Shown here: piece after piece, positions 7,793 to 54,763 of the stretch | Numbering within the stretch: the first letter of the stretch is position 1 | Layout of the letters: the number at the start of each line of letters is the position of its first letter | From: Oligoflexia bacterium | Lineage (GTDB): Bacteria > Bdellovibrionota > UBA1018 | Length of the DNA: 64,000 nt | Direction of reading: 5' to 3' | Assembly (NCBI GenBank): GCA_903898645.1 | Contig: CAIUGE010000037.1 | Span: 2,055 to 66,054, forward strand | Notes under the pieces: model-generated | Seen by the model: only the letters and a program-made list of their open reading frames with translations | Told to the model about the DNA's origin: nothing | Database searches by the model: none | Program-made: the position numbers and the translations under genes

Positions 7793-8742
7793 TTGCAGGT
7801 GGTGGTACGGGGGGGCATCTTTTTGCAGCCCTTGCAATTGCTGATCATATGAAAGCCCAGGGCGTCGAGGTTGTGCTAGTAGGTGCATCGCGAGGTATAA
7901 AAAATGGATTCCAATCCTATAGTTTAGCCATAGGGCCGATGAACCGTGTTTCATTGAAGCAAAAGCTCAATACTCTTTTTGTGAAATTACCCTACGCGCT
8001 CATCCAAGCAGCTCGAATTTTTCTCCATGAGAGGCCTGATGCTGTACTTGGTGTCGGGGGCTATGCGTCCTTTCCTTGTCTTTTGATCGGCATTTTGCTG
8101 CGGAAAAAAAGTGCAGTCCTTGAGCAAAATAGGTGCATGGGGATGGCTAATAGGACCCTAGCACGCTTCGTTGACTGTGTGTTTGCCTCGTTTCCCGATG
8201 TGCCCGGGACTATCTGGACTGGTAATCCAGTGCGATCGACGATACATCCACTGCCGTCATCAACAGGGCGTACGCTCCTCATACTTGGAGGGAGTCAGGG
8301 CGCGAGGGGTCTGAATGCGATGATTCTGCGACTTCTGCCAAAACTGACTGGATGGCATATTATGCACCAGACAGGGCGTGATGCCGTCACAAGAGAAAAC
8401 TATGAGGCGTTACCTTTTTTTGATAACATGCAGGAGCGTTATGCTGCGGCAACGATTGTGATTTCACGCGCTGGTGCATCAACTATTTTTGAGCTTGCGC
8501 GTGTTGGGCGGGCAGCTATCTTAGTGCCTCTTCCAACTGCAGCTGATAATCATCAAGAAGCAAATGCTCTTTATTTAGTTGAAAAAGGAGCTGCAAAGCT
8601 TGTGCATCAAGACGATGATGAGGCTTTACTGCAGGCTTTAGACGCGCTTACTGACGATACATGTCGTCAGGTTATGGAGCAGCATATAAGGCAACTTGAT
8701 GGGCAGGCTGAGGCAGCTATTTTTAAAGGACTTTTTTTATGA
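7729..8742 (+). CDS. murG: UDP-GlcNAc:undecaprenyl-PP-MurNAc-pentapeptide GlcNAc transferase
   Basis: VLIAGGGTGGHLFAALA N-terminal motif is present. The true start may be the GTG near 7783. Confidence 0.88.
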   Translation: MSRSASIGGFVEYSSNIKKVLIAGGGTGGHLFAALAIADHMKAQGVEVVLVGASRGIKNGFQSYSLAIGPMNRVSLKQKLNTLFVKLPYALIQAARIFLHERPDAVLGVGGYASFPCLLIGILLRKKSAVLEQNRCMGMANRTLARFVDCVFASFPDVPGTIWTGNPVRSTIHPLPSSTGRTLLILGGSQGARGLNAMILRLLPKLTGWHIMHQTGRDAVTRENYEALPFFDNMQERYAAATIVISRAGASTIFELARVGRAAILVPLPTAADNHQEANALYLVEKGAAKLVHQDDDEALLQALDALTDDTCRQVMEQHIRQLDGQAEAAIFKGLFL

Positions 8743-10118
8743 ACATTGCTCCCCATAAAACCAGGCACAAAGTTTTGCATTTTGTCGGTGTTGGCGGCAT
8801 CGGTATGAGTGGTATTGCGGAACTTTTTTTTACCCAAGGGTTCCATGTCACAGGGTCAGATCTGCATCAAAGTGAGGTGACAGACCGTTTATGTCGGCTT
8901 GGTATTGAAGTGTCTATTGGTCATGCAGCCCATCTTGTGCATGGTGCAGATGTTGTTGTTGTATCTTCGGCTATTGTGCCCAACCATGTTGAGTTGGAAG
9001 AAGCGCGTCGATTACGTATTCCTCTTATTTCACGAGCTGAAATGCTTGCTGAGCTGATGCGAATGCGTGTAGGTATTGGTATTGCAGGCAGCCACGGCAA
9101 AACAACAACAACATCAATGCTAGCAACTATCCTGAACCATGCGGGCTGTGATCCCACGCTTGTTATTGGCGGTTGTGTCAATAGTCTGGGTGGGAAAAAT
9201 GCGCATTTAGGTGCAGGTGAGTACCTGGTCGCTGAAGCAGACGAGAGCGACGGGTCTTTTCTTGCATTGCCATGCACCTATGCGATTGTAACAAATATTG
9301 ATAATGACCACCTTGATCACTATGGCAGTATTTCGGCGCTTGATGCTGCTTTTGTCAATTTTGTAGGCAGGCTTCCTTTTTACGGTGTAGCTGCTGTCTG
9401 TGGTGATGATTTGGGTATTAAACGTTCCTTGGACCAGTTCCGCCGCAAAGTACGTACCTTTGGTTTGCATGCTGGTAATGATGTGACTGTTAGTCGTATG
9501 GAGCTGCAAGGACTAGGGTCTCGCTTCTGGCTCAAAGACGGAAGCGCTTTTCAGCTCCAAGTGCCAGGTGTCCATAATGTGCTCAATGCTTTGGGTGCCA
9601 TCACGCTTGCCTATGAGCTTGGTATTGGCCCCGATGTTATGTCCCAGGCTTTAGCTTCTTTTCAAGGAGTCACAAGGCGTTTTGAGATCAAGTGGGCATC
9701 TCAAACACAAGTCATTGTTGATGATTACGGGCATCACCCCACAGAAATAGCTGCAACGCTTAAAGCTGCGCGTACTTACTGGCAGGGACGTATTATTTGT
9801 ATTTTTCAACCCCACCGTTATTCTCGCACTGTGCATTGTCATGACGGGTTTCTCTATGCCTTTGCTGAGAGTGATATTGTGTATGTGACTGACATCTATG
9901 CTGCAGGAGAAAAAAGCATCCCTGGAGTCAGCGCTGAGTATCTCGTGCAGGAAATGCGACGAGTTGCGCGGCCCCACCAGCAGATTATTTACGGAGGCTC
10001 CCTTGAGGATGTGCATCACTATATCGATGTGCTCTTTGCACCAGGCGATATGATTCTCTGTCAAGGAGCTGGTTCTATTACGTCCTTAGCTACGCAGTTG
10101 GCAAAGCAATGCAGTTAG
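8739..10118 (+). CDS. murC: UDP-N-acetylmuramate--L-alanine ligase; no fused Ddl domain
   Basis: GIAGSHGKTTTTSM P-loop is present. The 459-aa length corresponds to MurC only. Confidence 0.9.
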   Translation: MNIAPHKTRHKVLHFVGVGGIGMSGIAELFFTQGFHVTGSDLHQSEVTDRLCRLGIEVSIGHAAHLVHGADVVVVSSAIVPNHVELEEARRLRIPLISRAEMLAELMRMRVGIGIAGSHGKTTTTSMLATILNHAGCDPTLVIGGCVNSLGGKNAHLGAGEYLVAEADESDGSFLALPCTYAIVTNIDNDHLDHYGSISALDAAFVNFVGRLPFYGVAAVCGDDLGIKRSLDQFRRKVRTFGLHAGNDVTVSRMELQGLGSRFWLKDGSAFQLQVPGVHNVLNALGAITLAYELGIGPDVMSQALASFQGVTRRFEIKWASQTQVIVDDYGHHPTEIAATLKAARTYWQGRIICIFQPHRYSRTVHCHDGFLYAFAESDIVYVTDIYAAGEKSIPGVSAEYLVQEMRRVARPHQQIIYGGSLEDVHHYIDVLFAPGDMILCQGAGSITSLATQLAKQCS

Positions 10119-10951
10119 CCCGTATTACCTACGTGAAAATAGGAGGGCCTGCAGATCATTTTTGTGCGCCCCGTTCCCTTGCTGAATTGCAGAATATTGA
10201 TCATCCTCATGTCTTTATTCTTGGTGCAGGCTCCAACCTTTTAGTCGCTGATAGTGGCTTTCGTGGATGCGTGATTAGTATGGAGCATTTTGTAAAAATC
10301 CATCTTGCAGGCCTGCTCTATGTAGGTGCAGGTATGCGCCTTTTCCCTCTTCTTCGTTACTGTCAGCAACAGGGGTTGTCTGGGCTCGAGTGCCTTGCGG
10401 GTATTCCTGGCTCTCTTGGTGGAGCGCTTGCTATGAATGCAGGCACAAGTCAGGGTTCTATATCAAGCTGTGTTGAGAGCATTGAGCTCTACTCTTTTTC
10501 TAGCAGAAAAGTCATCCGAATGCCGGTCTCTTCAGAGCATTTCAGTTACCGCGCGAATCATTTTCTGACGCCTGATACTGTGATTCTTGGTGCCTATTTT
10601 AAATACACGCCTGATGCGGTAGATGCCATTCAGTCAAAGATTATGCACGCACTTGAAAAAAGAAAAGCATCTCAGCCTGTATCTCAGCTCTCATTTGGGA
10701 GTGTCTTTAAGAATCCTCCTGGCGAATCTGCCTGGCAGGTCATCGAAAATATCGGTCTGCGTGGCTACAAAATAGGTGATGCGCAGTTTTCAGAAAAACA
10801 CGCAAATTTTATCATTAATCATGGGCATGCCCGCGCCCAGGATGTCAAAGCTCTGATTGAGCTTGCGCAGCAACGTGCCCTCGCTTTGGGGATTGCCCTG
10901 CAGACAGAAGTAGTGATGCTGGGGTTTGATTCAGGTAGACAAAGTCTGTAA
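10109..10951 (+). CDS. murB: UDP-N-acetylenolpyruvoylglucosamine reductase
   Basis: FAD-binding N-terminus (GGPADHF, GAGSNLLV) and the MurB C-terminal domain are present. Confidence 0.85.
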   Translation: MQLARITYVKIGGPADHFCAPRSLAELQNIDHPHVFILGAGSNLLVADSGFRGCVISMEHFVKIHLAGLLYVGAGMRLFPLLRYCQQQGLSGLECLAGIPGSLGGALAMNAGTSQGSISSCVESIELYSFSSRKVIRMPVSSEHFSYRANHFLTPDTVILGAYFKYTPDAVDAIQSKIMHALEKRKASQPVSQLSFGSVFKNPPGESAWQVIENIGLRGYKIGDAQFSEKHANFIINHGHARAQDVKALIELAQQRALALGIALQTEVVMLGFDSGRQSL

Positions 10952-11003
10952 AAAATGATACACAAGATTTATTTAATGTACCTGGTATCATGAGAGGAAT
11001 GAA

Positions 11004-11858
11004 ATGCGCATTTTATTGCTATGTATTGTTGCAGCGTTTGCAGTTGGACAAGCAGGGGCGGCTGGTAACGCTGATGCGGATCCGGGGGAAGTTCCGTCGC
11101 TAGGAGGGGAGCCGGACTTAGCTGAGATGCGTGCAGGACGAGTGGCTGTAGCGGAAACGTTGAGGCGTAGGTGGGTAGAGCTAGAAGGTCGTCTGTTTGC
11201 TGACATAGATGCCACACGTCAAGCGGAGCCTGTATCGCCAAGAGATGTAGAAGTAATACGGTATGTTGGTGATGTGCCATACTCTGCTTTTACGGGGGTT
11301 GCTCAACAGCCTGCTGCAGAAGTTATTCAAACCACTGTATCCGATGAGGATAAAGCTCTGGCGGCAGCAATTATGGACAGAGTGAGTGCACAGGATTTGT
11401 ATGAATCGGGGGCTGTGAGGCTTCCTGAGATGGTTGTTTATTTCAACAAGTTGCATATTTTCTCTTGTGGTAATGTTTCATTGGACGGCTATCATGCCAA
11501 GGGAGCTAAAGAAAAAGAGAAAGCAATAGCAAGAGCGTTGAGCTTATTGCCGGTTGAGTATGAGATAGAATGTTGCGTGAATGCAGAAAAGGTGTACGTC
11601 AATAGCCTACATGTATGCCAACAATGTGGAGCTTTTGTTAGTCCCGTGGTCGTGCAGGCCTGGAAGAATAAGTGTCCGTACTGTATGAAGGCGCCGTTGT
11701 TGCAGAATGCAAGGTCGACAGTTCTGGCAGAGGAAGATCGGATTATTATTTTGCCACCAGGCACTTTGGCTCGAAGGCGTCCAATGTATGAACCGACATT
11801 TCATCGAGAAGTAGTACGGGTTGTTAATGGTATGCAACAGATTTATCGCTATCCGTGA
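11004..11858 (+). CDS. Secreted protein, paralog A of a triplicated family with a C-terminal Cys-rich zinc-ribbon-like domain (CQQC...CPYC)
   Basis: Signal peptide MRILLLCIVAAFAVGQAGAA is present. The C-terminal approximately 100 aa are near-identical to ORF 12500..13390. Confidence 0.7.
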   Translation: MRILLLCIVAAFAVGQAGAAGNADADPGEVPSLGGEPDLAEMRAGRVAVAETLRRRWVELEGRLFADIDATRQAEPVSPRDVEVIRYVGDVPYSAFTGVAQQPAAEVIQTTVSDEDKALAAAIMDRVSAQDLYESGAVRLPEMVVYFNKLHIFSCGNVSLDGYHAKGAKEKEKAIARALSLLPVEYEIECCVNAEKVYVNSLHVCQQCGAFVSPVVVQAWKNKCPYCMKAPLLQNARSTVLAEEDRIIILPPGTLARRRPMYEPTFHREVVRVVNGMQQIYRYP

Positions 11859-11869
11859 TAGGGATATGT

Positions 11870-12290
11870 AATTTTATAAGTATTGCAACGCCAAAAGTAA
11901 TAGTACAGACTCCTGTCATGAGCATCAATCATAGTGATTACAACATTCGATTACGTGCAATAGAAGCAATTTCTGATGGCCTCAGGCATTTAGGTGCAAT
12001 AAATCAACAGTGCATCGATGGCTTCAGTCTTACAAAAAAATAAAGATACAGAAAGTCTTACGACAAAACTCAGAAGTGGACGACCAAGCGTGTGGTCTCA
12101 AGAAAATGACCAGCAACGTATAAGCGATGTCTTAAAGCCAGCCTCAGAGTTTGAAACTGATTTTTGGACATGTCACCGTCTTGTGCAGTACATCAAAAGA
12201 GATTTCAAGGAGAGATTTCGGGATCAACTATGTGGCGATACTTGCGCAAGGCTGGTTTGATGTATCAATAGCCAGAAAAACAATATAAGG
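11870..12290 (+). pseudogene. IS630/Tc1-mariner-family transposase remnant (N-terminal HTH region, broken into two short frames)
   Basis: ORFs 11855..12043 and 12018..12260 give RLRAIEAI.DG and KLRSGRPSVWSQEN...W.....I.....F patterns. These resemble IS630 transposase N-termini. No DDE domain is present. Confidence 0.45.
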
Positions 12291-12295
12291 AGGCA

Positions 12296-12432
12296 GACCC
12301 GGCAGCACAAGAGAAAATTTTATCATTAATCACGGGCAGGACGTCAAAGTGAGTATTGAGCTTGCGCAACAACGTGCCCTCGCTGGGATTACCTTGCAGA
12401 CAAAAGTAGTGATGCTGGGGTTTGATTCAGGT
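12296..12432. repeat. Duplicated fragment of the murB 3' end plus the murB-downstream intergenic/RBS region
   Basis: Directly visible nucleotide similarity to approximately 10800..11003, e.g. aaattttatcattaatca.gggca ... gtagtgatgctggggtttgattcaggtaga. Confidence 0.8.
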
Positions 12433-12499
12433 AGATGACGTCTGCAAAACATGCTATACACTATGCATTAAATGTACCTGGTGTCATGAGGGGAATAAA

Positions 12500-13390
12500 A
12501 TGCGCATTTTATTGTTATGTATTGCTACAGCGTTTGCAGTTGGACGAGCAGGGGCGGCTGGTGACGCTGATGCGGATCCGGGGGAAGTTCCAGCGCTAGG
12601 AGGGGAACCGGATTCAGCTGAGATGCGTACAAGACAAGTCATTGAGGATGCAAGGCGTATAGTTGCAGTGGCTACAGATGATGTCAGAGCAGCTAGTAGG
12701 GCTGCAGAGGCTTTCGGGTCTGCAGAGGTTGCAATGCGCTCATATATTGAAAGCCTGGGCGGCTTCTTCCGGGCAGGGGAGAGAGGAAGGTTTGTAGCGC
12801 GTGGATACGATGAGCTTCGGGAGCTGTATTACCAATTTGAGTCCGAATGTCATGCAGCGAGGCGTGAAATGCCGGCAGAGGATCTATGGCAGAGATGGAG
12901 TGTTGTTGTGGAGGATCAACAGCCTGCTGTAGAAAGTCAGCTTTCAGCAGAAGCTATTCAAGCCGCTGTAGAAAAAACAAAGCGTGAAGCTCCCGAGTTA
13001 TTAGAGCATAGACTAGCAGCTGCATCCGCTGAGGATAAAGCTCTGGTGGCAGCAATTATGGACAGAGTGAGTCCACAGGATTTCTATGAATCGGGGGCTG
13101 TGAGGCTTCCTGAGATGGTTGTTTATTTCAACAAGTTGCATATTTTCTCTTGTGGTAATGTTTCATTGGACGGCTATCATGCCAAGGGAGCTAAAGAAAA
13201 AGAGAAAGCAATAGTAAGAGCGTTGAGCTTGTTACCGGTTGAGTATGAGGTGGAATGTTGCGTGAGTGCAAAAAAGGTGTACGTCAATAGCCTGCATGTA
13301 TGCCAAGAATGTGAAGCTTTTGTTAGTCCTGTGGTCGTGCAGGCCTGGAAGAATAAGTGTCCGTACTGTATGAAGGAGCCGTTGTTGTAG
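12500..13390 (+). CDS. Secreted protein, paralog B of the Cys-rich C-terminal-domain family
   Basis: ATG at 12500 starts a signal peptide MRILLLCIATAFAVGRAGAA. The track ORF begins at 12422 by read-through. TAG at 13388 corresponds to CAG in paralog A, so B is about 52 aa shorter at the C-terminus. Confidence 0.7.
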   Translation: MRILLLCIATAFAVGRAGAAGDADADPGEVPALGGEPDSAEMRTRQVIEDARRIVAVATDDVRAASRAAEAFGSAEVAMRSYIESLGGFFRAGERGRFVARGYDELRELYYQFESECHAARREMPAEDLWQRWSVVVEDQQPAVESQLSAEAIQAAVEKTKREAPELLEHRLAAASAEDKALVAAIMDRVSPQDFYESGAVRLPEMVVYFNKLHIFSCGNVSLDGYHAKGAKEKEKAIVRALSLLPVEYEVECCVSAKKVYVNSLHVCQECEAFVSPVVVQAWKNKCPYCMKEPLL

Positions 13391-13639
13391 GATGCAAGAT
13401 AGCTTGGGGTAGGGATGAGGAATGTCTGAGTGTTGCAATAAACGCTGACAGAGCTCGAGGGGATATATCGCCAAGACATGAACAAGAAATATCGTATGTT
13501 GGTGATGTGCCATACTCTGCGCTATCAAGATAGGTAGGGGAGCGGCAAGGAATTTCTTTTTTTGAATGACTTCAGACGCATCTTTTGATGATCTAGACAT
13601 ATTGAAATGGGGGATTGTGCATTTTAGAAAGTAGTAAGA

Positions 13640-14110
13640 ATAGTGTTATGTATCTTTTCTCTGGCTCTCTTGGTGGAGCTTTTGCTATGAATACCAGGAT
13701 GTCTTTTGAAGACATCTGCTGCCTCGACGAATCAGTTTCTTGTGCCTGACCTGATGGTTCTTGGTGACTATTGAAAATCTGAGGTACTAAATCATAATTC
13801 CATTATGAATCATTGATGCGCTTGAAAAAAAGCATCTCAGCTCGGTATCTTCCTTCTCATTTTTTGAGTATCTTTAAAAGCTTCTTTGGCGGACCTGCTT
13901 AGCAGGTCACCCAATGCGGCGGTCTGTGTGGTTATGGAGTAGGTGATGCGCAGTTTTCAGAAAAAACTCAAATTTTATCATGAATCACGGGCATGTCTGC
14001 GCCCAGAACGTCAAAGCGCGTATTGAGCTTGCTCAATAACGTTCTCTCGCTATTAAAGTTGCTTTTCAGACGACAGTAGTGATGCTGGGGTTTGATCCAG
14101 TCAGATGTCA
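13640..14110. pseudogene. Degenerate copy of the murB 3' half (non-coding remnant)
   Basis: Nucleotide similarity to murB 10398..10950, e.g. ctctggctctcttggtggagc..gctatgaat and ggtgatgcgcagttttcagaaaaa. Frames are disrupted. Confidence 0.75.
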
Positions 14111-14228
14111 GTCTTGACTTTTGTAAAAACATATAGTGCATAGCAAACGTGCGGTATTCTCATGCATTATAAATAATAATCGGATATATTGTTGATGGCT
14201 TTTTCATTGTTACAACGAGAGGGATGAA

Positions 14229-14918
14229 GTGCACATTTTATTTTTATGTTTTGTCGCAGCGTTTGCAGTCGATCGGGAGGGGTCTGTGCATTCTGAGGTT
14301 CCGTTAGAAGCAGATGGATGGGGAGGGGTGGGGCTTGGTGGAGCTCTGAGCTGGGCTGACGTTGTGGGGCAAGACTCGATGCAGGATGAGGATGAAGCGT
14401 TTCAGGAAGCTGTCAGACAATCAATGGATACGTTGAGCCAGCAACAGCGTATGGAAAGTCAGCATCAAGCATGTAGAATTAAAGCTGCTGCAGAAGTAAT
14501 AAAGCATGCAGCTCCGAAATTATTAGAGCAAAGATTGAAGTCTGCATCAGATGAAGTAAAGTTTTTGGTAGCAGTCATTACTGATAAGGTCAGTCCTGAT
14601 GCTATGTATGGGTTATCGGTCGAGACTCTTTTCGAGATGGCTAGCTACTTGCGTGACGCATTGCATCTTTTTCCGTGTGGAGATGCGGCATTGAAAGAGT
14701 ATCATCACAAGGGAGATGAAAGGAAGATGCAAGCAATCGTGGAGGCGATTGGGTTATTGCCAGTTGAGTACCAGATAGAGTGCCCTATTGAAAGAGACAG
14801 CATATGGGTTGGGGCTGTGTGTTCATGCCAATTTTGCAAGAAGTTTTTTGGTCCAAACGTTGAGAAGTTCTCGAATACTAGGTGCCCATTCTGTAGAGGC
14901 GCTTTGCCTATTCGTTAA
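14229..14918 (+). CDS. Secreted protein, divergent paralog C of the Cys-rich C-terminal-domain family; apparent GTG start
   Basis: N-terminus VHILFLCFVAAFAV aligns to the MRILLLC signal peptides of A and B. The start codon is GTG, and the nearby ATG at 14224 is out of frame. C-terminus ...LLPVEYQIEC...CSCQFC...CPFC is conserved. Confidence 0.6.
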   Translation: MHILFLCFVAAFAVDREGSVHSEVPLEADGWGGVGLGGALSWADVVGQDSMQDEDEAFQEAVRQSMDTLSQQQRMESQHQACRIKAAAEVIKHAAPKLLEQRLKSASDEVKFLVAVITDKVSPDAMYGLSVETLFEMASYLRDALHLFPCGDAALKEYHHKGDERKMQAIVEAIGLLPVEYQIECPIERDSIWVGAVCSCQFCKKFFGPNVEKFSNTRCPFCRGALPIR

Positions 14919-16179
14919 TGCTCGCGGCATCAATATGGGTGCTGTTGTCCAGTTTTAGATGAGTGCCAAGGAGGGTAACTGAAATGTTTTCAGGACGAAA
15001 GAACGCTTTCAGGGCTGCGTTGACCTCGGGATAGGTGATGTTTTTAATCCTATCTTTCTCATGAGCAAAAAAACCTTCTTCTAGACCAAAAACAACTTCA
15101 TGGAGTTTGTTCTCTAGACGTTTGGATGGGGTGTTTGTTTGAAAATCAGCACTTTTGATGAGGCTTTCCTGGGCAAATAAAAATTCGTCCTGACTAATTC
15201 CTTTTTGAATCCAATTGCGAATAAGCTGCCAGGCAAGTTCGTATGCTTCCTGAGTGCGCTTGGTTGCAGGGTAGAGGAATGCCTGCCAGAGGTAGGGTTC
15301 GGTTGCAAACAGGAAGCGGCTTCGTGCGCCGTAGCTCAGTCCGCGATTGACGCGAATTTCTCGCATGAGTGTTGATGAGAACATGCCACCACCAAATGCA
15401 TGGTTGGCAATCATCAGGGGTGCGCTTTTTGTGATAGCAGGGCCTGGGTGCGTGAAGATAATCTGTGATTGGGTGCGCTCTTTTTTATCAATAACAGTCA
15501 TGCTTGGCTGGTATGTACTGGGTGCTGAGGTTTTTGCTTCAAGTGGCACAGATGATAGACCGAGGTTTTTGACCCAGGACTCAATCATATCTTTTTGAAA
15601 ATCGCCTGAAACAAGAATAATAGCATTCTGTGTATGAAGCGTGCGCGCTGAGTGTTGTCTGAGTTGGTCCTGGGTGATGGCTCGTAATGTACTTTTTCGT
15701 CCATAGGCACCATGTCCGTAAGGGTGTTTTTGGCCAAAGGCCGCATGGCTCGAATAACTGAGAGCAAGTGACATGTCGCTATTCTGCTCTTCGTCGAGCT
15801 GTGCAATCATTTCATCGCGAAGTATGGTGCATTCGTCTTCTTGAAACCTAGGCTGTTCAAGAACATCTTTGATGAGTCTGAGGGATGGTGCTGCGTTGCG
15901 CGAAAGCATGGTTGCATGAAGCGCCGTATAGTCAGCATGTGTTTCGCAAAAAATTGTTGTGCCTAGATCATCAAAAGCGGCACTGAGCTCCTGTCTCGAT
16001 TGTATAATGGTGCCTCGTAGGAGCATCTTGCAGAGAAATGCTGTTATCCCTTCTCGGCCTTGGGGATCACTTGCGTACCCGCCTCGGAATGCAATAGATG
16101 CATGGATGAGTGGGATGGTTGTGTCAAGTTCGGTATGAAGGATCGCTGCCTGCGCAAGCGTTAGAAGAAGTGCTATCAT
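14908..16179 (-). CDS. M16-family peptidase-like protein (non-catalytic partner type), secreted
   Basis: Signal peptide is present. M16 fold pattern with no HxxEH motif. The start overlaps the upstream M16 gene by 4 nt. Confidence 0.6.
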   Translation of the reverse strand: MIALLLTLAQAAILHTELDTTIPLIHASIAFRGGYASDPQGREGITAFLCKMLLRGTIIQSRQELSAAFDDLGTTIFCETHADYTALHATMLSRNAAPSLRLIKDVLEQPRFQEDECTILRDEMIAQLDEEQNSDMSLALSYSSHAAFGQKHPYGHGAYGRKSTLRAITQDQLRQHSARTLHTQNAIILVSGDFQKDMIESWVKNLGLSSVPLEAKTSAPSTYQPSMTVIDKKERTQSQIIFTHPGPAITKSAPLMIANHAFGGGMFSSTLMREIRVNRGLSYGARSRFLFATEPYLWQAFLYPATKRTQEAYELAWQLIRNWIQKGISQDEFLFAQESLIKSADFQTNTPSKRLENKLHEVVFGLEEGFFAHEKDRIKNITYPEVNAALKAFFRPENISVTLLGTHLKLDNSTHIDAASINE

Positions 16180-17519
16180 TTTTTGATCCGTCCTTGAATG
16201 CGGGTGCAGAGCTTTTTTTGGAAAAAGCTTTTGAGGCTCTGCTGTACATCGCTGACTGTGAGTGCTTGCTCCCGTTCGTGGAGGAGGAATGCTTCCTTAT
16301 ACGATTCAGCAAGAATTTCATATTTACCAAGGACGTGAGCAAAACTAGGTGGCGCTTCCATGGCGCCATACCAATCAGCATCAAGAAAATTTTTGGCGCG
16401 GGTAAGCGCGCGAGGTGTGATGCTTAGGTGTCCAAGGAAAGACTCGATAAGTTCGCTAGCTTCAAGCGCCGTGTGCCCCTTTTGGAGATCGACTCCTATG
16501 ATAAAGAGCCCTGGATCGTGGCTTTCGTAGCAGATAGCTTCAGCGCTGCTTGCTATGCCAGGCACAATGAGGAGTTCGCGAAGGAGTGCGCTTTGCCCAC
16601 TTCCGAGCATAACAGCGAGTGTATTGAGTGCTGCCATATGTGCACGGTCTTTTGATGCAGGGATTTTGTAGGCAAGCAGGAGTTTTTCCTGCGGTATAGT
16701 TAAAAACATTGTTTGATCACGAAATGCTGTTTGCACTGGTTCCTGGGTAGTGTGCACTGTGCGTTTTGCTTGAGCTGGAAGAGCGCCATAATATTTTTCA
16801 GCCTTGGCACAGATCTCATTAGGATCAACATTGCCTGTAATAATGATATGTGCATTTTGAGGCTGGTAGTACTTCTTGTAGAAGTTCTGTGCATCGCGCA
16901 CCGTCGTACGGTCGAGGTCCTCTTTGAGGCCTATGACGGGAGTGTGGTAGGGATGTTTTTTGAATGCTGTTTCAAAAAGACGGGCTTGCATGAGTCCATC
17001 AGGGCTATTTTCTGTACGTAAATGTCGTTCGCTATGGACAACGTCAATTTCAGTTGCGAGCGATTCAGTTGTTATGACGAGATGCTTCATTCGGTCTGCC
17101 TCTAATTCCATGATGCGGTCGAGCGCACCTTGAGGGAGCTCTTGAATGTAGGCTGTATAGTCATAGCTTGTGAATGCGTTCATACCCTGGAAGCCATCGC
17201 GCTCCAGGATGTGGTCGAAATGCGGATAGAGCTTGGTGCCCTTGAACATCATATGCTCAAAAAGATGCGCAAGTCCGGTATGGCGTTTTTCCTCCATCCT
17301 GGATCCCACATCAAACCATGTTTGAAAGGCAATAGTGGTGCTACTTTTGTTTGGCGCAACAACAAGCGTGAGCCCGTTTTTGAGTTGCATCCTTGTAATG
17401 GTATTCCAGGTTTCTGTTTTGCAGGCGAGAGCACTTTTGATCAAAAGAAAGAGTATCACCTGATTCATTTTGCATAATTTATTCCCTTTGTCCACAAAGA
17501 AGCGTCGGGGGGCGTCCAT
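16176..17519 (-). CDS. M16-family zinc metallopeptidase (pitrilysin-like), catalytic subunit type
   Basis: Inverted zinc motif HLFEHMMFKGT (HxxEH) is present. Signal peptide MNQVILFLLIKSALA follows an internal Met. Confidence 0.75.
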   Translation of the reverse strand: MDAPRRFFVDKGNKLCKMNQVILFLLIKSALACKTETWNTITRMQLKNGLTLVVAPNKSSTTIAFQTWFDVGSRMEEKRHTGLAHLFEHMMFKGTKLYPHFDHILERDGFQGMNAFTSYDYTAYIQELPQGALDRIMELEADRMKHLVITTESLATEIDVVHSERHLRTENSPDGLMQARLFETAFKKHPYHTPVIGLKEDLDRTTVRDAQNFYKKYYQPQNAHIIITGNVDPNEICAKAEKYYGALPAQAKRTVHTTQEPVQTAFRDQTMFLTIPQEKLLLAYKIPASKDRAHMAALNTLAVMLGSGQSALLRELLIVPGIASSAEAICYESHDPGLFIIGVDLQKGHTALEASELIESFLGHLSITPRALTRAKNFLDADWYGAMEAPPSFAHVLGKYEILAESYKEAFLLHEREQALTVSDVQQSLKSFFQKKLCTRIQGRIKK

Positions 17520-17871
17520 GGGATAGAGAAGGTATTGCGCAGCTTGCTAGAGCGGGAGCATGTTTATTGCATTGTTTTTAGTCAGAAACTTTTTCGCAGC
17601 GTGTAATGCATTCTTTTCTGTTCGTGCTTTCAGTTGCATAGCGCAAGCCTGATTTTACTTTCCATGAGTTGTGTGTAAGTCATTGAGTATCCGTGTAGCG
17701 AAAGCATTTTTGAGGAAGGAATTGTTAAAGTGGCTCCATTGTTTCATCAAAAAATCTCTATCGCTTAGAGGTCTTTCGGCAGTCCCTTTTGTATCAGGCA
17801 TGAGGGATGCCTGATATGCCATGTGCTGCATGTATGTCTGATTTCGCACATCACTTTTTCGTTAATCTGTT

Positions 17872-18846
17872 CTAAGAATGGTTTGTGTGGACGGAGGATG
17901 TCGAAGATGACGGCGTCTTATCATGTGGCAGACAATGAGTGCCCAGATATTTTAGGGCATTTGCAGCATGTATAAATAGCCCCAGTAGTGTAGAAGGTCT
18001 TTTGGCTTCAGGCTTCGGGCCGATTGATGGCGCAGCTGTGTTGACCTGAGGCGTGTTTGCGGCTGCAGGCTTCGGGCCGCTTGATGGCGCCCCTGCGTTG
18101 ACCTTAGGCGGGTTTGCGGCTGCAGGCTGCGCGATCGGTGACGGCCTTGTGCGGACCACCTTAGGCGTTTTTGCGGCTGCAGGCTGCGCGCCGATCAATG
18201 ACTCCCATTCGTCGATCCTGTTTTTCAGCTTTTGTGCATGAATAGCATTTTCATGTTGTTTGGCTAGATAATCAAAAATCACACGCTCAACTATCTGGTT
18301 AACAAGATTGAATTGACCTTTAAGTATTGATTCGTTTAATGACTCCTTAGTAATACCTTGCACACAATCTTTTAATCTTTTTAAAAACTCTTGTTCTGAA
18401 GATATTTTTGTTGCTGTCTGCGGTATGTGAGGTGTCTTGGTTGCCTCGTTTTCTGCTTGCCATAGGGCACGTGCCTCGATTACATCTTCTACTTGCTTGA
18501 GTAGGCTACGTAGCGTAGCTATATTTTCTGCTGTAGGGCCTATCTTTATTAAGGTACTGATTTCTTCTTCCTTCATTTTAAGTAGTCTTTCGGCATATGC
18601 CTTGCTGGGCTCGAAGGATATTGTTCGTGCAGCTACCTTTTCGGATACTTTCTTTTTGATTTCGTCAAAAGCAGGTTGCATCCTTCCTACGTTATCGGCA
18701 GCTTCCTGCGCAATGTCTTTGAGGTCTTGTCTTGTTGAGCCTGCGGCTACTTGTCTCTGCACCCATTCGTTTTGTGCGATGAATATAGCTTCAGACTTGT
18801 TTGTTGAAACGCGTTCTTGCTTGAAGCCGGCCGTAATTTTTTCCAT
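17872..18846 (-). CDS. Hypothetical protein with a K/E-rich (likely coiled-coil) N-terminal part and a C-terminal Pro/Ala-rich tandem-repeat region
   Basis: 324-aa ORF. Its C-terminus is encoded by 54-nt DNA tandem repeats at 18001..18205. Confidence 0.5.
   Translation of the reverse strand: MEKITAGFKQERVSTNKSEAIFIAQNEWVQRQVAAGSTRQDLKDIAQEAADNVGRMQPAFDEIKKKVSEKVAARTISFEPSKAYAERLLKMKEEEISTLIKIGPTAENIATLRSLLKQVEDVIEARALWQAENEATKTPHIPQTATKISSEQEFLKRLKDCVQGITKESLNESILKGQFNLVNQIVERVIFDYLAKQHENAIHAQKLKNRIDEWESLIGAQPAAAKTPKVVRTRPSPIAQPAAANPPKVNAGAPSSGPKPAAANTPQVNTAAPSIGPKPEAKRPSTLLGLFIHAANALKYLGTHCLPHDKTPSSSTSSVHTNHS
18001..18205. repeat. Approximately 3.6 copies of a 54-57-nt tandem repeat (tttgcggctgcaggc...ccttaggcg)
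   Basis: Directly visible in the sequence. It encodes ...AAANPPKVNAGAPSSGPKPAAANTPQVNTAAPSIGPKP... on the minus strand. Confidence 0.85.
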
Positions 18847-18971
18847 AGCATCTTTTTTTAGTATCGCAATTTCCTTTTTTTTATAGTCTTCTTCGTATTC
18901 AATCAGAAACTTCTCCAGTTCCTTGTTGATAGCGGCCTTCTGAGTGGGGTTGTTTGTCCGCCATTTGCTAG

Positions 18972-19265
18972 CTACATTACGCGCAGCCGTTTGGCTGCGT
19001 TTAGAGGCTGTCTTTTAGCTATGCAATCTGCATAAAATTTAGAATAAATTTCAGAATCATCGTATGGTGCGCTAAGCTCATGAAGCTCCTTATTTTCATA
19101 ATTCTGACGTTTTTCCGCTGCCATCTCTGCCGCAGCCTTGATTTCTTCGATGAGTGTCTGAGGTTTTTGTGGAGCTGGTTCATGGGGCCCGGAGGCTATT
19201 GGAGTATATGGAGGTACGGCAATTGCTGTGTGAAAACAAAAAATACAAAATAGTAAAACTTTCAT
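18972..19265 (-). CDS. Small secreted hypothetical protein
   Basis: Signal peptide MKVLLFCIFCFHTAIA is present. It lies 125 nt upstream of the repeat-protein gene. A +1 frame continuing into that gene is open. Confidence 0.4.
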   Translation of the reverse strand: MKVLLFCIFCFHTAIAVPPYTPIASGPHEPAPQKPQTLIEEIKAAAEMAAEKRQNYENKELHELSAPYDDSEIYSKFYADCIAKRQPLNAAKRLRVM

Positions 19266-19340
19266 ATAAGTACCCATAATAATATGCTTGCATGATGCGT
19301 GCCATTTTTTTGAGTAAGGTGTGTTTTTTTTGACGCTATA

Positions 19341-20042
19341 TTAGTTTTCGTAGGGCGATGTATGGTCGAGTGATGGCATGAGCCCTGAGAGGTCTATGCT
19401 CATGGTTTTGTCTCTGCACTGCCTTTTTAGGAGCGCATTTTTTCTGTGGGGCACTCGCTTTTTGCATGGAAGAAGACTGATTTTTTTGCATCTGTCCCAC
19501 TGCTCCTTTATTTGAGGCTCAAGGAATCGTATCTGTTCTGGCATTACTAAGGCAATGACTTTCCCTCCAAGTAGGGCACGTGCTGCTCGTATGGGGGGAT
19601 CATCTTGTTGCGTGAAGCCTGTTTCACAAGGGTCTTTTAGGAGGTTTTGAACACATAAAATAGCTGATTCTCGTAACGTTTTGAGAACTTCCATTTTTAA
19701 CTGTGCAATTCCATAAGCTGCATTGTATGAAGCTGGTTGGCTTTTTTCGATGGGCATTATGCTAACGCAATGTTCGTTTAGTATGCGAAGAGCGCTGTGA
19801 GTTGCATGACTTGCTACTGTTTTTGTAATGCATTTTATGATATTTTTAAGCACCTCTTTTTGAGGTGCCGGCGTTATCGTACACCCAATGCACGAGAGTG
19901 CGCCTTCTGTTTTTGCGAATGCGATCAGTGCTCGCTGGATGTGACTTTGGGGAGGTTCTTGCAAAAGCTCATCTAGGTTTATGGCTTCCTGAGGTGTGGC
20001 AAGGGCTATATGCATGCACAAAATGAGGAAGGGCGCTTTCAT
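19341..20042 (-). CDS. Secreted hypothetical protein with a basic C-terminal tail
   Basis: Signal peptide MKAPFLILCMHIALA is present. The C-terminus carries KKRVPHRKNALLKRQCRDK. Confidence 0.45.
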   Translation of the reverse strand: MKAPFLILCMHIALATPQEAINLDELLQEPPQSHIQRALIAFAKTEGALSCIGCTITPAPQKEVLKNIIKCITKTVASHATHSALRILNEHCVSIMPIEKSQPASYNAAYGIAQLKMEVLKTLRESAILCVQNLLKDPCETGFTQQDDPPIRAARALLGGKVIALVMPEQIRFLEPQIKEQWDRCKKISLLPCKKRVPHRKNALLKRQCRDKTMSIDLSGLMPSLDHTSPYEN

Positions 20043-20196
20043 TGACTCTCTGATGGTACCATTTATTCGTTAATTTGTATCATGCATGATCTGTGACATC
20101 GAAAAGTATCTGCTGTGAAGCGCAACGTGTCATGCTATTCTAAACATTTTTTTCCTCTGTCTGAGGAAGAGTCATATATACATACAAAGTGGGGGG

Positions 20197-20829
20197 ATGT
20201 TTATGCTTATTGCATTGCCGTTTGCGCATCGCGTCAGCGCTCTTGTCTGGCTTATATTCCTTGGTATGTGTGGGTTTGCATTGAATTCGCTCCGCATTGA
20301 GCGGATGCAGGGGTATGAGGTTGCTGCATTTTTTGGCAGGCCACTGTTTGTGCAGGACAGGGCCATTGTCGCTGAAATAAAAAAAAATAAGGCAATCAGA
20401 CAGGCGACCATTAGACGTATCTTGCCCAGTACCTTGGAAATTGACGCAATATATCGTATTCCTCTTGCTCGGGTTGGTGCTTATGCGCTTGACGAAGAAG
20501 GTGTCCTTTTTGAATCAGGGGCGGCCTTGCTTGAGCTTTCCTGTCCTGAGGAAAGCTATCCCAAATTAGGTGCCTTGTTGACAAGTATCCCGTGGAGGGG
20601 ATCGATTCATGCGATCGATTGTGCATCCCAGAGCATGACAGTGATGCTCCGGCGTGAAGTAACGGTGATCTTTGATAAGCCTCTTGCTCAGGTGACACAG
20701 CAGGAGCTCGTTCGCCTTGGTCAGATCAGACGTTTGCTGCTCAAAGCGCCTTTTCATGTGCAGTCAGTCTTTTTTCGTCCCTATGCAAAAACTATTGTCA
20801 AAAAGGCAATAGATCCCTACCCTCTTTGA
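20197..20829 (+). CDS. ftsQ: Cell division protein FtsQ-like (short)
   Basis: N-terminal TM segment then a POTRA-like region. It lies immediately upstream of ftsA. Confidence 0.5.
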   Translation: MFMLIALPFAHRVSALVWLIFLGMCGFALNSLRIERMQGYEVAAFFGRPLFVQDRAIVAEIKKNKAIRQATIRRILPSTLEIDAIYRIPLARVGAYALDEEGVLFESGAALLELSCPEESYPKLGALLTSIPWRGSIHAIDCASQSMTVMLRREVTVIFDKPLAQVTQQELVRLGQIRRLLLKAPFHVQSVFFRPYAKTIVKKAIDPYPL

Positions 20830-20844: not shown

Positions 20845-22017
20845 ATGAAATGTTTTGCAGCGCTTGATATTGGATCGACAAAGATTGCATGCATGATCGG
20901 ATGTCATGAAGAGGGGTCTTTGCGTGTTCTTGGTAAAGGTGTTGCACCAGCATTGGGTATGCGTAAAGGGACTATTGTCCATATTGATGCAACCGTTCAA
21001 GGTATCCAGCAAGCAGTGCGCGAAGCTGAGAAAGCTGCTGGCGTGAGTGTTGATACTGTCATTGCAGGTATTTCCGGTTCTCATATACAGTCATTTAACT
21101 CAACTGGGATTGTTGCTATTCGTGATAAAGAAGTGGTGTATGATGACGTGCGGCGCGTTTTAGAGGCTGCACGTGCTGTTGCTATCCCTGTTGATCGTGA
21201 AACAATCCATATGCTCCCTCAGGAATACTTGATTAATGATCAAGGAGGTATTCGGGATCCGCTTGGCATGAGTGGCGTCAGGCTTGAGGCAAAGGTACAT
21301 ATTGTCACGGGATCGACAGCGGTTGCCCAAAATATTATAAAATGTGCGAATAAAGCTGGCCTGCATGTTGCCGAAGTGTGTTTGGCGTCACTTGCGTCTG
21401 CACAGAGTCTTTGTCATGACGAAAAAGAATTGGGCGTTGTTTTGATTGATATTGGGGGCAGTACAACAGACATTGTGATCTTCAAAGAAGGTGCAATCAT
21501 CCATACTGCCATTATCCCTATAGGCGGATCGCATATTACGAATGATATTGCTCTTGGTCTGAGGACGCCCATAGCTGAGGCTGAGAAAATGAAGTGCTTG
21601 CATGGTTGTGCATTGACTTCTTTGATAGGATTCGATGAGATGGTGGAAGTCCCAGGTGTGGGTGGGAGGCGAGCACAGGCCTTGTCGCGACGATCTTTGG
21701 CTGATATCATTGAGCCACGATTAGAAGAGTTGATATTGATGGTAGGGCGGGAGATAGACAAAACACATATGCGTCACGTGCTCTCAGCTGGTATTGTTAT
21801 GACAGGGGGGTCATCGCTTGTGTATGCTTTACCTGAGCTTGCTGAATTTACGCTTGAGATGCCCGTTAAGAGAGTGGATGCATCTCCAGAATTGTCAACA
21901 GTGTTGGGGCTCTTGCGCACGCGCTATGACCGTGAGCAAAAGAAGGTGCATCAAAAAAACACTGTATCTGACCGTCTGACAAGGTCTGTGAGTGCTTGGA
22001 TGCGAGATTTATTCTAA
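20845..22017 (+). CDS. ftsA: Cell division protein FtsA
   Basis: Actin-like ATPase motifs DIGS(T)K and GG..TD are present. Confidence 0.88.
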
Positions 22018-22039
22018 TTTTAAAAGGGGGAAGTTTATT

Positions 22040-23197
22040 ATGATGGATGAAATGATAAGCGGTGGGGCAAAAATTAAAGTAGTTGGCGTTGGTGGGAGTG
22101 GGTGCAACGCAGTAAATACTATGATTCGTGCCGGTTTGCATGGTGTGGAGTTTATTACAGCAAATACCGACAAGCAGGCACTTGATGCATCCCTTGCGAC
22201 AGTCAAGCTTGCCATTGGTCAGGAGCTTACGAAGGGTCTTGGGGCAGGCGCCAACCCGGAAGTGGGAAGGAAAGCCGCGCTGGAAGATTATGCAAAAGTG
22301 TCTGAAATTCTTGCAGGCGCAGATATGGTTTTTATCACAGCTGGTATGGGCGGGGGTACTGGAACCGGTGCTGCGCCTATTTTTGCAAAAGTTGCCAAGG
22401 AAATAGGCGCTTTGACAGTAGGCGTTGTGACAAAGCCATTTCTTTTTGAAGGGCGTAAACGTATGCGGCACGCAGATGCCGGTATGCTTGCTTTACGTGA
22501 AAGTGTTGATTCTTTGATTACTATACCAAACCAGAGGTTGCTTGCTATTTCTGGTGCAACGCTTTCGATGGTGGATGCATTTAAGAAAGCAGACGAAGTG
22601 CTTCTGAATGCTGTGCAGGGTATATCTGACCTGATCAATAATACAGGTCTTATTAATAGTGACTTTGCCGATGTACGTACAATCATGCAGAATAAGGGTC
22701 TTGCTCTTATGGGTATAGGTTATGGCGAAGGTGAGCATCGCGCTGTTGATGCGGCCACAAATGCCATCAGCTCCCCGTTGCTTGATGATATCTCGATTGA
22801 TGGAGCAACAGGTATTATTATTAATATCACCGGTGGGTCTAATCTTAAAATCCATGAAGTGAATGAAGCAACAACGCTGATTATGGAAGCGGCGCATGAA
22901 GATGCTGAGATCATTTTTGGGACTGTCATTGATGAATCGCTAAAAGATATGGTCAAAGTGACAGTGATTGCGACAGGTCTTGGTGTGCATAAAGAGATAG
23001 TGCCTACCTTTGAGCCTGCGCCAATGATCCATGCTGTTGAAGAGCCTCTTGTTGAAGCTGTGCTTGAGGCTGCACCTGAGTCTCAGGAGTTGGCGCGTGC
23101 CCGTGCAATAGCGCAGCGTCTTGGCATTACGAATCTTACCGATGATGAGTATGAGGTGCCAACCTATATGAGACGGCAGCAAGAAAGGGACCTTTGA
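22040..23197 (+). CDS. ftsZ: Cell division protein FtsZ
   Basis: GGGTGTG tubulin signature and NTD motif are present. ATG at 22040 follows a GGGGGA RBS. The track ORF starts at 21992. Confidence 0.92.
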
Positions 23198-54720: not shown

Positions 54721-54763
54721 GTCTGGTGCAGGGTGGCTCAAGATCTGGTACGCTGGGTGCCAC

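What the first reader, a model, noticed from the sequence alone, without database searches (positions are those of the whole stretch)
10952..20196. Roughly 9-kb mosaic accessory island inserted between murB and ftsQ, where ddl normally sits
The dcw order runs murE, mraY, murD, ftsW, murG, murC, murB and then, after 9 kb, ftsQ, ftsA, ftsZ. No ddl is present, and murF is also missing between murE and mraY. The intervening block is clearly non-core. It carries three paralogous secreted Cys-rich proteins, an IS630 transposase remnant, two murB 3' fragments and an M16 peptidase pair. It also carries a tandem-repeat protein and two small signal-peptide proteins. Insertion into one of the most conserved gene clusters in bacteria is unusual.
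Basis: partly seen in the sequence, partly recalled or inferred. Interest (0 to 1): 0.8.

Follow-up and report, generated by a model that had tools for sequence, protein, structure and literature searches.

The report
Lineage-typical dcw gap padded with orphan genes
The 9-kb block between murB and ftsQ is not one inserted island: its core, a pair of M16 peptidase genes, and the lack of ddl and murF are the normal layout in Bdellovibrio-like bacteria, and this genome added about 6.6 kb of genes found nowhere else, partly by repeatedly duplicating one gene together with the end of murB.

Summary

**Ancestral parts.** The nearest relatives are Bdellovibrionota MAGs (FtsZ up to 89% identical, MurB 40-46%).
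- Five of them carry murC-murB, then M16b and M16a on the opposite strand, then ftsQ(-ftsA)-ftsZ.
- In five of them murE abuts mraY, with no murF.
- None has ddl within 10 kb of murB.
- So the missing ddl and murF and the M16 pair are ancestral for this phylum, not an insertion.

**Lineage-specific parts.**
- 10952-14907 (4.0 kb) is a tandem array of three paralogous genes for signal-peptide proteins. Unequal recombination of a unit made of the murB 3' end plus the gene built it. It left two murB pseudo-fragments, one gene fragment and a decayed IS630 N-terminus.
- 17520-20196 (2.7 kb) holds three further genes with no family-library match.

**No island hallmarks.** Composition and codon usage match the core genes. 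There is no tRNA, integrase or flanking repeat. The paralogue family has only four members, all from this organism, among 1.84 billion representative proteins. Its fold is unresolved, and my RING-like idea was not supported.

Moderate interest: an unusually padded dcw cluster and an orphan family, but an ordinary mechanism.

The parts
10109..10951 (+). murB, intact. Its 3' end is the left edge of the duplicated unit.
   Evidence: Pfam FAD_binding_4 + MurB_C. Repeats D2, D4, D7, D8 and D10 start inside it.
11004..11858 (+). cysA, paralogue 1 of the orphan signal-peptide family. In this contig the stop codon is lost (TAG to CAG at 11703), which adds a 51-aa tail.
   Evidence: Alignments. The allele with the stop codon is in L087.
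11918..12316 (+). Decayed IS630-family transposase N-terminus (HTH part only, frameshifts, no DDE domain). It sits exactly at the junction of unit 1 and unit 2.
   Evidence: Weak Pfam HTH_32/HTH_33 matches. tblastn to annotated IS630 transposases, about 30% identity, E=9e-6. Coordinates.
12316..12435 (+). murB pseudo-fragment 2 (MurB aa 233-277, small deletions).
   Evidence: blastn 84% to 10804-11143. tblastn 80%.
12500..13390 (+). cysB, paralogue 2 (296 aa). Its 3' 379 nt are 95% identical to cysA; the 5' part is much more diverged.
   Evidence: The identical protein occurs in independent assemblies.
13405..13527 (+). Fragment of a further, mostly deleted family copy (matches cysA aa 57-97).
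   Evidence: blastn 89% to 11233-11287. tblastn 46%.
13661..14105 (+). murB pseudo-fragment 3 (MurB aa ~100-277, with in-frame stops, frameshifts and an internal deletion).
   Evidence: blastn 74-94% to 10407-10934. tblastn across three frames with stops.
14229..14918 (+). cysC, paralogue 3 (229 aa), the oldest copy (dS about 1.4 to the others).
   Evidence: The cysC-M16b junction is reproduced at 99.8% in two other assemblies, L002 and L003.
14908..16179 (-). M16b, the inactive (no HxxEH) subunit of an M16 peptidase pair. Ancestral at this position.
   Evidence: Pfam. Orthologues are in the same place and orientation in L004, L012, L015, L016 and L017.
16176..17519 (-). M16a, the active subunit (HLFEH at aa 85) with a lipobox-like SALAC motif. 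Ancestral at this position.
   Evidence: Pfam. HxxEH is conserved in all four orthologues compared (L004, L012, L016, L017). 41-45% identity to the relatives.
17872..18846 (-). Orphan protein with a helical N-part, a Pro/Ala-rich 19-aa repeat (57-nt unit, 17987-18215) and a hydrophobic C-terminal segment.
   Evidence: TRF and repeat finder. Only itself found in 5.8 billion proteins. No Pfam, NCBIfam, PHROG or PADLOC family.
18972..19277 (-). Small ORF (101 aa) with an N-terminal signal-like hydrophobic segment.
   Evidence: Sequence. No family match.
19341..20042 (-). ORF (233 aa) with an N-terminal signal-like segment and 8 Cys.
   Evidence: Sequence. No family match.
20197..20829 (+). ftsQ (short, divergent), the right border. 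It is divergently oriented to the minus-strand genes.
   Evidence: Weak POTRA_1 match. POTRA/FtsQ ORFs hold the same position after M16a in L004, L012, L016 and L017.

Best explanation
The block is the Bdellovibrionota version of the dcw cluster with lineage-specific genes added at its two internal operon boundaries.

**Ancestral layout.** In this phylum murF and ddl are not in the cluster. A periplasmic M16 peptidase pair, one active lipoprotein subunit and one inactive subunit, lies on the opposite strand between murB and ftsQ. The cluster is therefore already split into ...murB>, <M16 and ftsQAZ>.

**Left boundary (murB> <M16b, convergent).** An orphan gene for a Sec-signal protein came to lie after murB. 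This step is inferred. Unequal homologous recombination then duplicated a unit made of the murB 3' end plus that gene at least three times. This step is shown by the sequence.
- The older duplication carried about 545 nt of murB and gave cysC.
- The younger one carried about 150 nt of murB and gave the cysA/cysB pair.
- One further copy is almost fully deleted.
- An IS630 element landed at, or helped create, the unit 1/unit 2 junction and then decayed.
- The 3' halves of cysA and cysB were later homogenised.

**Right boundary (<M16a ftsQ>, divergent).** Three more genes with no detectable relatives, two of them with signal peptides, accumulated upstream of the M16 pair.

**Consequences (inferred).** None of these additions interrupts an operon, which is why they are tolerated. 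The products are probably exported envelope or extracellular proteins. The variable helical N-part and the conserved C-terminal Cys5 module of the cys family suggest a diversifying surface or interaction role. Biochemical function is not established.
For: **Ancestry.**
- murB-M16b(-)-M16a(-) occurs in L004 (Bdellovibrio sp.), L012 (Oligoflexia), L015 and L017 (Bacteriovoracaceae) and L016 (Bdellovibrionia), followed by ftsQ in all but L015, whose contig ends inside M16b. In L012 and L016 the genes overlap or lie within 62 nt of each other.
- murE lies 34-117 nt from mraY in five Bdellovibrionota loci, against about 1.4 kb (murF) elsewhere.
- No Ddl was found in any of 13 Bdellovibrionota-like loci.

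**In-place duplication.**
- Same-orientation repeats each start inside murB and run into a paralogue.
- The murB copies are pseudogenes.
- dS is graded: 0.06 and 0.68 for cysA-cysB, about 1.4 to cysC. dN/dS is 0.35-0.66.
- L087 shows a cysA/cysB crossover inside a 46-nt identical tract.

**Native composition.** GC, GC3 and codon log-likelihood lie inside the core-gene range. Tetranucleotide z is no lower than -2.0, matched by several core stretches.

**No mobility marks.** No tRNA, no Rfam match, no flanking repeat above chance, no phage or defence family.

**Orphan status.**
Against: - The nearest available relatives are distant (MurB at most 49%, MurC at most 60%). The time and manner of arrival of the first cys gene and of the three right-hand genes cannot be dated, and old, ameliorated horizontal transfer cannot be excluded.
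- An IS630 remnant is present, so some mobile-element activity did touch the locus.
- Only 5 of about 10 informative Bdellovibrionota-like loci have the M16 pair after murB. L001, L006, L008, L010, L040 and L047 do not. 'Ancestral' therefore holds for a sub-clade and may not hold for the whole phylum.
- The stretch 10-14 kb lies in the lower tail of the tetranucleotide signature (z about -1.9 to -2.0).
- Export is inferred from the sequence only.
Confidence: 0.8

Rival explanations
1. A single horizontally acquired roughly 9-kb genomic island was inserted between murB and ftsQ and displaced ddl.
For: - The gap is the longest of 57 genomes compared.
- An IS630 remnant lies inside it.
- Most of its genes have no relatives.
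Against: - The central 2.6 kb (the M16 pair) is syntenic in five same-phylum genomes.
- ddl and murF are absent from the cluster across those genomes.
- Composition is native.
- There is no integrase, tRNA or att repeat.
- The murB fragments prove that growth happened in place.
Confidence: 0.03
2. The progenitor cys gene and/or the three right-hand genes each arrived by old horizontal transfer, perhaps helped by IS630. They then took on the host's composition, and local duplication followed.
For: - The IS630 remnant sits at a unit junction.
- The murB|M16b junction holds different unrelated genes in L004 (an SDR) and L017 (an unknown 329-aa ORF), so it is a recurrent landing site.
- The tetranucleotide score of 10-14 kb is slightly low.
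Against: - No donor or homologue exists anywhere in 1.84 to 5.8 billion proteins.
- Codon usage cannot be told apart from that of core genes.
- A fourth paralogue sits in an ordinary chromosomal context between lspA and lgt.
Confidence: 0.14
3. The repeats are a metagenome assembly artefact, that is, chimeric joins or a collapsed or expanded repeat.
For: - Other assemblies of the same organism break at these repeats. Their contigs are 1-3 kb.
- L087 joins cysA to the sequence downstream of cysB.
Against: - The copies differ by 5-33% and carry their own indels, stops and frameshifts. Misassembly does not create these.
- The murB-cysA, cysB-fragment and cysC-M16b junctions and the exact cysB protein recur in independent assemblies.
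Confidence: 0.03

Closest known systems
Bdellovibrionota-type dcw cluster, as in MAG loci L012 (Oligoflexia), L016 (Bdellovibrionia), L004 (Bdellovibrio sp. ZAP7) and L017 (Bacteriovoracaceae)
   Same: - murE abuts mraY, with no murF (seen in L012, L016 and L017).
- No ddl is present.
- The order is murC-murB, then the M16b/M16a pair on the opposite strand, then ftsQ-(ftsA)-ftsZ.
- M16a keeps HxxEH and M16b lacks it.
   Different: - The window has 3,956 nt instead of 0-1 kb between murB and M16b.
- It has 2,677 nt instead of 62-154 nt between M16a and ftsQ.
- Both stretches are filled with genes that have no counterpart in those genomes.
- It also has about 1.5 kb extra between ftsI and murE.
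Canonical proteobacterial dcw cluster (E. coli type: ...murE-murF-mraY-murD-ftsW-murG-murC-ddl-ftsQ-ftsA-ftsZ; in Methylococcales, e.g. L025, murB precedes ddl)
   Same: The order of murE, mraY, murD, ftsW, murG, murC, murB, ftsQ, ftsA and ftsZ is the same.
   Different: murF and ddl are absent from the cluster. An opposite-strand M16 pair and orphan genes lie between murB and ftsQ.
Tandem segmental duplication arrays that evolve by birth and death (unequal crossing-over), as in many surface or effector paralogue arrays
   Same: - The repeat units are head to tail and include a piece of the neighbouring gene.
- Copy divergence is graded.
- Decayed copies are present.
- The 3' halves have been homogenised.
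- A candidate recombinant haplotype exists (L087).
   Different: The array sits inside the dcw cluster, and the family has no relatives outside this organism.
Genomic islands / integrative elements
   Same: It is a block of strain- or lineage-specific genes with a transposase remnant.
   Different: - There is no integrase.
- There is no tRNA or att site.
- Composition is native.
- The middle of the block is conserved core synteny.
Heterodimeric M16B peptidases (one active and one inactive subunit, as in mitochondrial processing peptidase alpha/beta and bacterial pairs such as YmfF/YmfH-like proteins)
   Same: - There are two adjacent genes, each with Peptidase_M16 and M16_C domains.
- HxxEH is present in one subunit only.
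- Weak NCBIfam similarity to YfmH/YfmF lies far below the cut-off.
   Different: The fixed position inside the dcw cluster is specific to this phylum. The substrate is unknown.
RING / U-box domains of bacterial E3-ligase effectors
   Same: There is only a motif-level resemblance in the C-terminus: C-x14-CQxC-x15-CPxC.
   Different: - No Pfam match (best zf-C3HC4_3 E=3.6).
- Only 5 invariant Cys instead of 8 ligands.
- No significant fold match.
- The proteins carry Sec-type signal peptides.

Membership tests
Horizontally acquired genomic island | Base composition or codon usage deviates from the host core | tested here: not met
   GC 0.42-0.49, GC3 and codon log-likelihood lie within the range of 14 core genes. 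Tetranucleotide z is no lower than -2.0, matched by core stretches at 31-34, 38-41 and 52-55 kb.
Horizontally acquired genomic island | Integrase or recombinase, or other intact mobility genes | tested here: not met
   Pfam, NCBIfam and PHROG scans of all large ORFs find only a frameshifted IS630 N-terminal remnant.
Horizontally acquired genomic island | Insertion at a tRNA or att site, with flanking direct repeats | tested here: not met
   There is no tRNA or tmRNA in 64 kb. The longest shared words at the borders are 11 nt, at chance level.
Horizontally acquired genomic island | Absent from the same position in related genomes | tested here: inconclusive
   The M16 pair is present in five relatives. 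The other 6.6 kb is absent from them, but the relatives are distant (MurB 40-46%).
Bdellovibrionota-type dcw cluster | murE directly followed by mraY; no murF or ddl in the cluster | tested here: met
   The window gap is 5 nt, against 34-117 nt in L008, L012, L016, L017 and L034. No Ddl or MurF was found by tblastn.
Bdellovibrionota-type dcw cluster | Opposite-strand M16b/M16a pair between murB and ftsQ | tested here: met
   The order and orientation are the same as in L004, L012, L015, L016 and L017, with 31-45% identity.
Tandem segmental duplication | Same-orientation repeat units that carry part of the adjacent gene, with degenerate copies | tested here: met
   Repeat families D1-D10, blastn map, and murB pseudo-fragments with stops and frameshifts.
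IS630 family insertion sequence | DDE transposase catalytic domain, terminal inverted repeats, TA target duplication | tested here: not met
   Only about 130 aa of the N-terminal HTH region remains, with frameshifts and a stop. Inverted repeats were not found. It is a remnant, not an element.
M16B heterodimeric metallopeptidase | Peptidase_M16 + M16_C domains in both proteins; HxxEH zinc motif in one subunit only | tested here: met
   Pfam E=2e-23 and 6.6e-23 (M16a), 3e-10 and 3.8e-19 (M16b). HLFEH occurs only in M16a.
RING / U-box E3 ligase domain (cys family C-terminus) | Significant match to RING or U-box profiles; eight cross-brace ligands or a U-box fold | tested here: not met
Sec-exported proteins (cysA-C, 18972-19277, 19341-20042) | Cleavable N-terminal signal peptide | not testable with these tools
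   A basic residue followed by a 12-15-residue hydrophobic core and an AxA-like site is visible in the sequences. No signal-peptide predictor was available.

The most novel reading that the evidence does not exclude
The dcw-embedded M16 peptidase pair of Bdellovibrionota may be a lineage-specific envelope or division protease. The orphan exported proteins that this organism has piled up on both sides of it, including the expanding Cys5-module family, may be its substrates or partners. That would make a new envelope or prey/host-interaction module co-located with, and possibly co-regulated with, cell-wall synthesis. The murB 3' fragments would then have been kept because they carry the promoter.
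Probability: 0.08. Interest if true: 0.55.

Novelty: new variant of a known kind. Interest (0 to 1): 0.3.

Why it matters
**A lesson for genome scans.** Absence of ddl and murF and 'foreign' genes inside the dcw cluster need not mean an insertion. In Bdellovibrionota the cluster is ancestrally split around an M16 peptidase pair. That layout is visible in public genomes, but none of the papers I could search describes it.

**A clean example of how new genes grow at operon boundaries.** Each duplication dragged along a dated piece of the essential neighbour murB. The order of events can therefore be read from the sequence.

**An unexplained family.** The four-member family of signal-peptide proteins has no relatives in 1.84 billion representative proteins, and its function is unknown. 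It would matter more if it proved to be a new metal-binding or interaction module of an uncultured predatory or host-associated bacterium.

Tried and rejected
2. **Remote homologues of the cys family.** A word-indexed search and an exhaustive HMMER search of 1.84 billion representatives found only the organism's own four paralogues.
3. **Homologues of the repeat protein.** Only itself.
4. **Phage or defence origin.** PHROGs and PADLOC gave nothing meaningful.
5. **Promoter and terminator scans.** Counts were at shuffle level. The one promoter-like site duplicated along with the murB fragment (10787-10815 and 13954-13981) is not above chance.
6. **Rfam.** No match.
7. **Att-like flanking repeats.** Chance level.
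8. **Sample or host identification.** Accession searches in the literature found nothing.
9. **Literature on the Bdellovibrio dcw layout.** Nothing describes the M16 pair.
10. **'Arf-like' GTPase as a sign of a eukaryotic host.** I did not follow this up. From my own knowledge, Ras-like MglA-type GTPases are common in this phylum.
11. **The window's own genome in the GTDB scan.** It was not among the 80 loci kept.

Full report
**1. What is in the window**

ORF listing and Pfam scans give this order:
- ftsI 3' end (to 799).
- A 2-kb gap.
- murE 2810-4231, mraY 4236-5333, murD, ftsW, murG, murC 8739-10118, murB 10109-10951.
- The 9.2-kb block.
- ftsQ 20197-20829 (short, weak POTRA match), ftsA 20845-22017, ftsZ 21992-23197.

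The rest of the window is ordinary chromosome: recR, dnaX, mltG/yceG, rho, prfA, prmC, murA, ruvCAB and lpxC.

The block holds these features:
- Three plus-strand paralogues: cysA 11004-11858, cysB 12500-13390, cysC 14229-14918.
- An IS630 remnant at 11918-12316.
- Two murB fragments.
- Two minus-strand M16 peptidase genes, 14908-16179 and 16176-17519.
- Three further minus-strand ORFs: 17872-18846 with a 57-nt repeat, 18972-19277 and 19341-20042.

Every descriptive item in the finding is therefore correct.

**2. ddl and murF**

I took Ddl and MurF ORFs from a Methylobacter locus (L025) and checked them with Pfam. I then searched the window with them by tblastn.
- There is no Ddl. The best E-value is 1.4.
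- MurF matches only the paralogous murC, murE and murD.
- No ddl is hidden in the block.

**3. Who the relatives are, and what they have at this position**

The window's MurB has no relative above 49% identity among 5.8 billion proteins, apart from its own sequence. A pattern scan of GTDB species representatives with a MurB alignment returned 80 loci. The best are Bdellovibrionota/Oligoflexia MAGs.

tblastn of all window proteins against these loci shows high identity only to that group. FtsZ reaches 84-89%, MraY 65-70% and MurC 55-60%. The organism is a deep-branching Bdellovibrionota.

In L004 (Bdellovibrio sp.), L012 (Oligoflexia), L015 and L017 (Bacteriovoracaceae) and L016 (Bdellovibrionia), murB is followed by orthologues of both M16 genes on the opposite strand. 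L015's contig ends inside M16b. In the other four a POTRA-domain FtsQ follows, and then ftsA and/or ftsZ.
- In L012 and L016 the genes overlap or lie no more than 62 nt apart.
- The active-site motif HxxEH is present in the M16a orthologue of L004, L012, L016 and L017, as in the window.
- None of their M16b orthologues has it.
- In five Bdellovibrionota loci murE lies 34-117 nt from mraY. Most other phyla have about 1.4 kb there, which is murF.
- None of the 13 Bdellovibrionota-like loci has Ddl within 10 kb of murB. 36 of the 80 loci overall do.

Across 56 loci the murB-to-ftsA distance falls into three classes:

| murB-to-ftsA distance | What lies between | Loci |
|---|---|---|
| 0.76-1.1 kb | ftsQ only | 23 |
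| 1.7-2.3 kb | ddl + ftsQ | 30 |
| 3.7-5.0 kb | M16 pair + ftsQ | 3 |
| 9.9 kb | this window | 1 |

The missing ddl and murF and the M16 pair are therefore inherited features of this lineage. They are not the result of an insertion. What is special here is about 6.6 kb of extra DNA at two boundaries: 3,956 nt between murB and M16b, and 2,677 nt between M16a and ftsQ.

**4. How the left part arose**

Repeat finding and a sensitive self-blastn show same-orientation repeats that each begin inside murB and run into a paralogue.

| Reference segment | Repeat segment | Identity |
|---|---|---|
| 10804-11143 | 12315-12639 | 84% |
| 10407-10438 and 10554-10934 | 13661-13692 and 13728-14100 | 94% and 74% |
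| 10992-11044 | 14217-14269 | 87% |
| 11335-11713 | 13020-13398 | 95% |

- The murB copies are dead. The fragment at 12316-12435 covers MurB aa 233-277 and has deletions. The fragment at 13727-14105 covers aa 149-277 across three frames and has in-frame stops.
- A further scrap of a family gene lies at 13405-13527.
- Synonymous divergence is about 1.4 between cysC and the other two.
- Between cysA and cysB it is 0.68 in the 5' part but only 0.06 in the last 125 codons.
- dN/dS is 0.35-0.66.

These data indicate at least three rounds of tandem duplication of a unit made of the murB 3' end plus the gene. One round is old and one is younger. Decay of one copy and recent homogenisation of the 3' halves followed.

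The IS630 remnant fills the novel junction between unit 1 and unit 2. It is about 30% identical to the N-terminal parts of annotated IS630 transposases, is frameshifted, and has no DDE domain.

**5. Is the array real?**

Independent assemblies of the same organism support it.
- They reproduce 14156-17199 at 99.8% (L002, L003).
- They reproduce the murB-cysA junction with the 284-aa cysA.
- They reproduce the exact cysB protein with its downstream ORF.
- Their contigs are short and end at the repeats, as expected.

One contig from another sample (L087) is identical to cysA up to 11691 and to cysB from 13331 on. The switch lies within a 46-nt identical tract. L087 is either a real haplotype that lost one 1,685-bp unit by unequal crossover or an assembler chimera. 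Either reading fits a tandem repeat.

**6. Island hallmarks**

- GC, GC3 and codon-choice likelihood of all block genes fall within the spread of 14 core genes.
- The tetranucleotide signature of 10-14 kb is in the lower tail (z about -1.9 to -2.0). Several core stretches are equally low, and the right-hand part is typical.
- There is no tRNA and no Rfam match.
- There is no integrase.
- No flanking repeat exceeds chance.
- There is no phage or defence family.

**7. What the lineage-specific proteins are**

The cys family has only four members. Three are in the window. The fourth (P0136) is on another contig of the same organism, between lspA and lgt. A full HMMER search of 1.84 billion representatives found nothing else.

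Each protein has these parts:
- A signal-like N-terminus (MRILLLCIVAAFAVG...).
- An acidic linker.
- A variable, predicted helical region.
- A conserved region of about 125 aa that ends in C-x14-CQxC-x15-CPxC.

The repeat protein is also an orphan. The two smaller ORFs have no family match.

**8. Mechanism and verdict**

The best-supported account is in-place accretion at pre-existing operon boundaries of an ancestrally split dcw cluster, with birth-and-death tandem duplication on the left side. What is shown: the ancestry of the M16 pair and of the ddl/murF absence, the duplication architecture, native composition and orphan status. What is inferred: export of the proteins, their role at the envelope or surface, and how the first copy arrived.

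The material is accessory and unusually long for this cluster. It is not one island, not demonstrably foreign, and it did not displace ddl.

Noticed in passing
window 800-2809: A 2-kb gap between ftsI and murE holds a zeta-toxin/AAA_33-like P-loop ORF (1421-2044, minus strand). Relatives have only about 0.4-0.6 kb there. This stretch has the lowest tetranucleotide correlation of the segments tested (r=0.749). It looks like a third lineage-specific addition inside the dcw cluster.
   Followed up: partly
window 23223-23813 (-) and 54812-55294 (+): A small Ras/Arf-like GTPase gene lies directly after ftsZ (Pfam Arf E=1e-6). It has a weak paralogue (29% identity) inside the 672-aa ORF 54542-56560. 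It may be MglA-like, as is common in this phylum.
   Followed up: no
L004 4349-7077, L012 10848-13534, L016 10881-13774, L017 10416-13252, L015 3210-3500: An M16 peptidase pair is fixed between murB and ftsQ in several Bdellovibrionota MAGs. It consists of an active, lipobox-bearing subunit and an inactive subunit. None of the papers I could search describes it. It could be an envelope or division protease specific to the phylum.
   Followed up: partly
L004 3564-4358; L017 9359-10348: The murB|M16b junction holds a different extra gene in other genomes: a short-chain dehydrogenase in L004 and an unknown 329-aa ORF in L017. This junction seems to be a recurrent spot for gene gain.
   Followed up: partly
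L087 1-1094 (window 10777-11691 joined to 13331-13555): A contig from another sample joins the cysA 5' part to the cysB 3' flank, with the switch inside a 46-nt identical tract. It is either a one-unit deletion haplotype or an assembly chimera.
   Followed up: partly
window 11703: The cysA stop codon is lost in this contig (TAG to CAG), which gives a 51-aa tail. The L087 allele keeps the stop and ends ...CMKEPLL, as cysB does.
   Followed up: yes
protein P0136, 10,586-bp contig of ERZ1426645: A fourth member of the cys family (320 aa, 63% identical to cysB) lies elsewhere in the genome, between lspA (signal peptidase II) and lgt. Both are lipoprotein-processing genes.
   Followed up: partly
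L016 13721-16113: In this Bdellovibrionia MAG, ftsQ appears to be followed directly by ftsZ. No ftsA is detectable by tblastn.
   Followed up: no
window 20197-20829: FtsQ is short (210 aa, against 264-299 aa in relatives). It is very divergent, with POTRA at only E=0.0015, and tblastn finds no match to it in the relatives.
   Followed up: no
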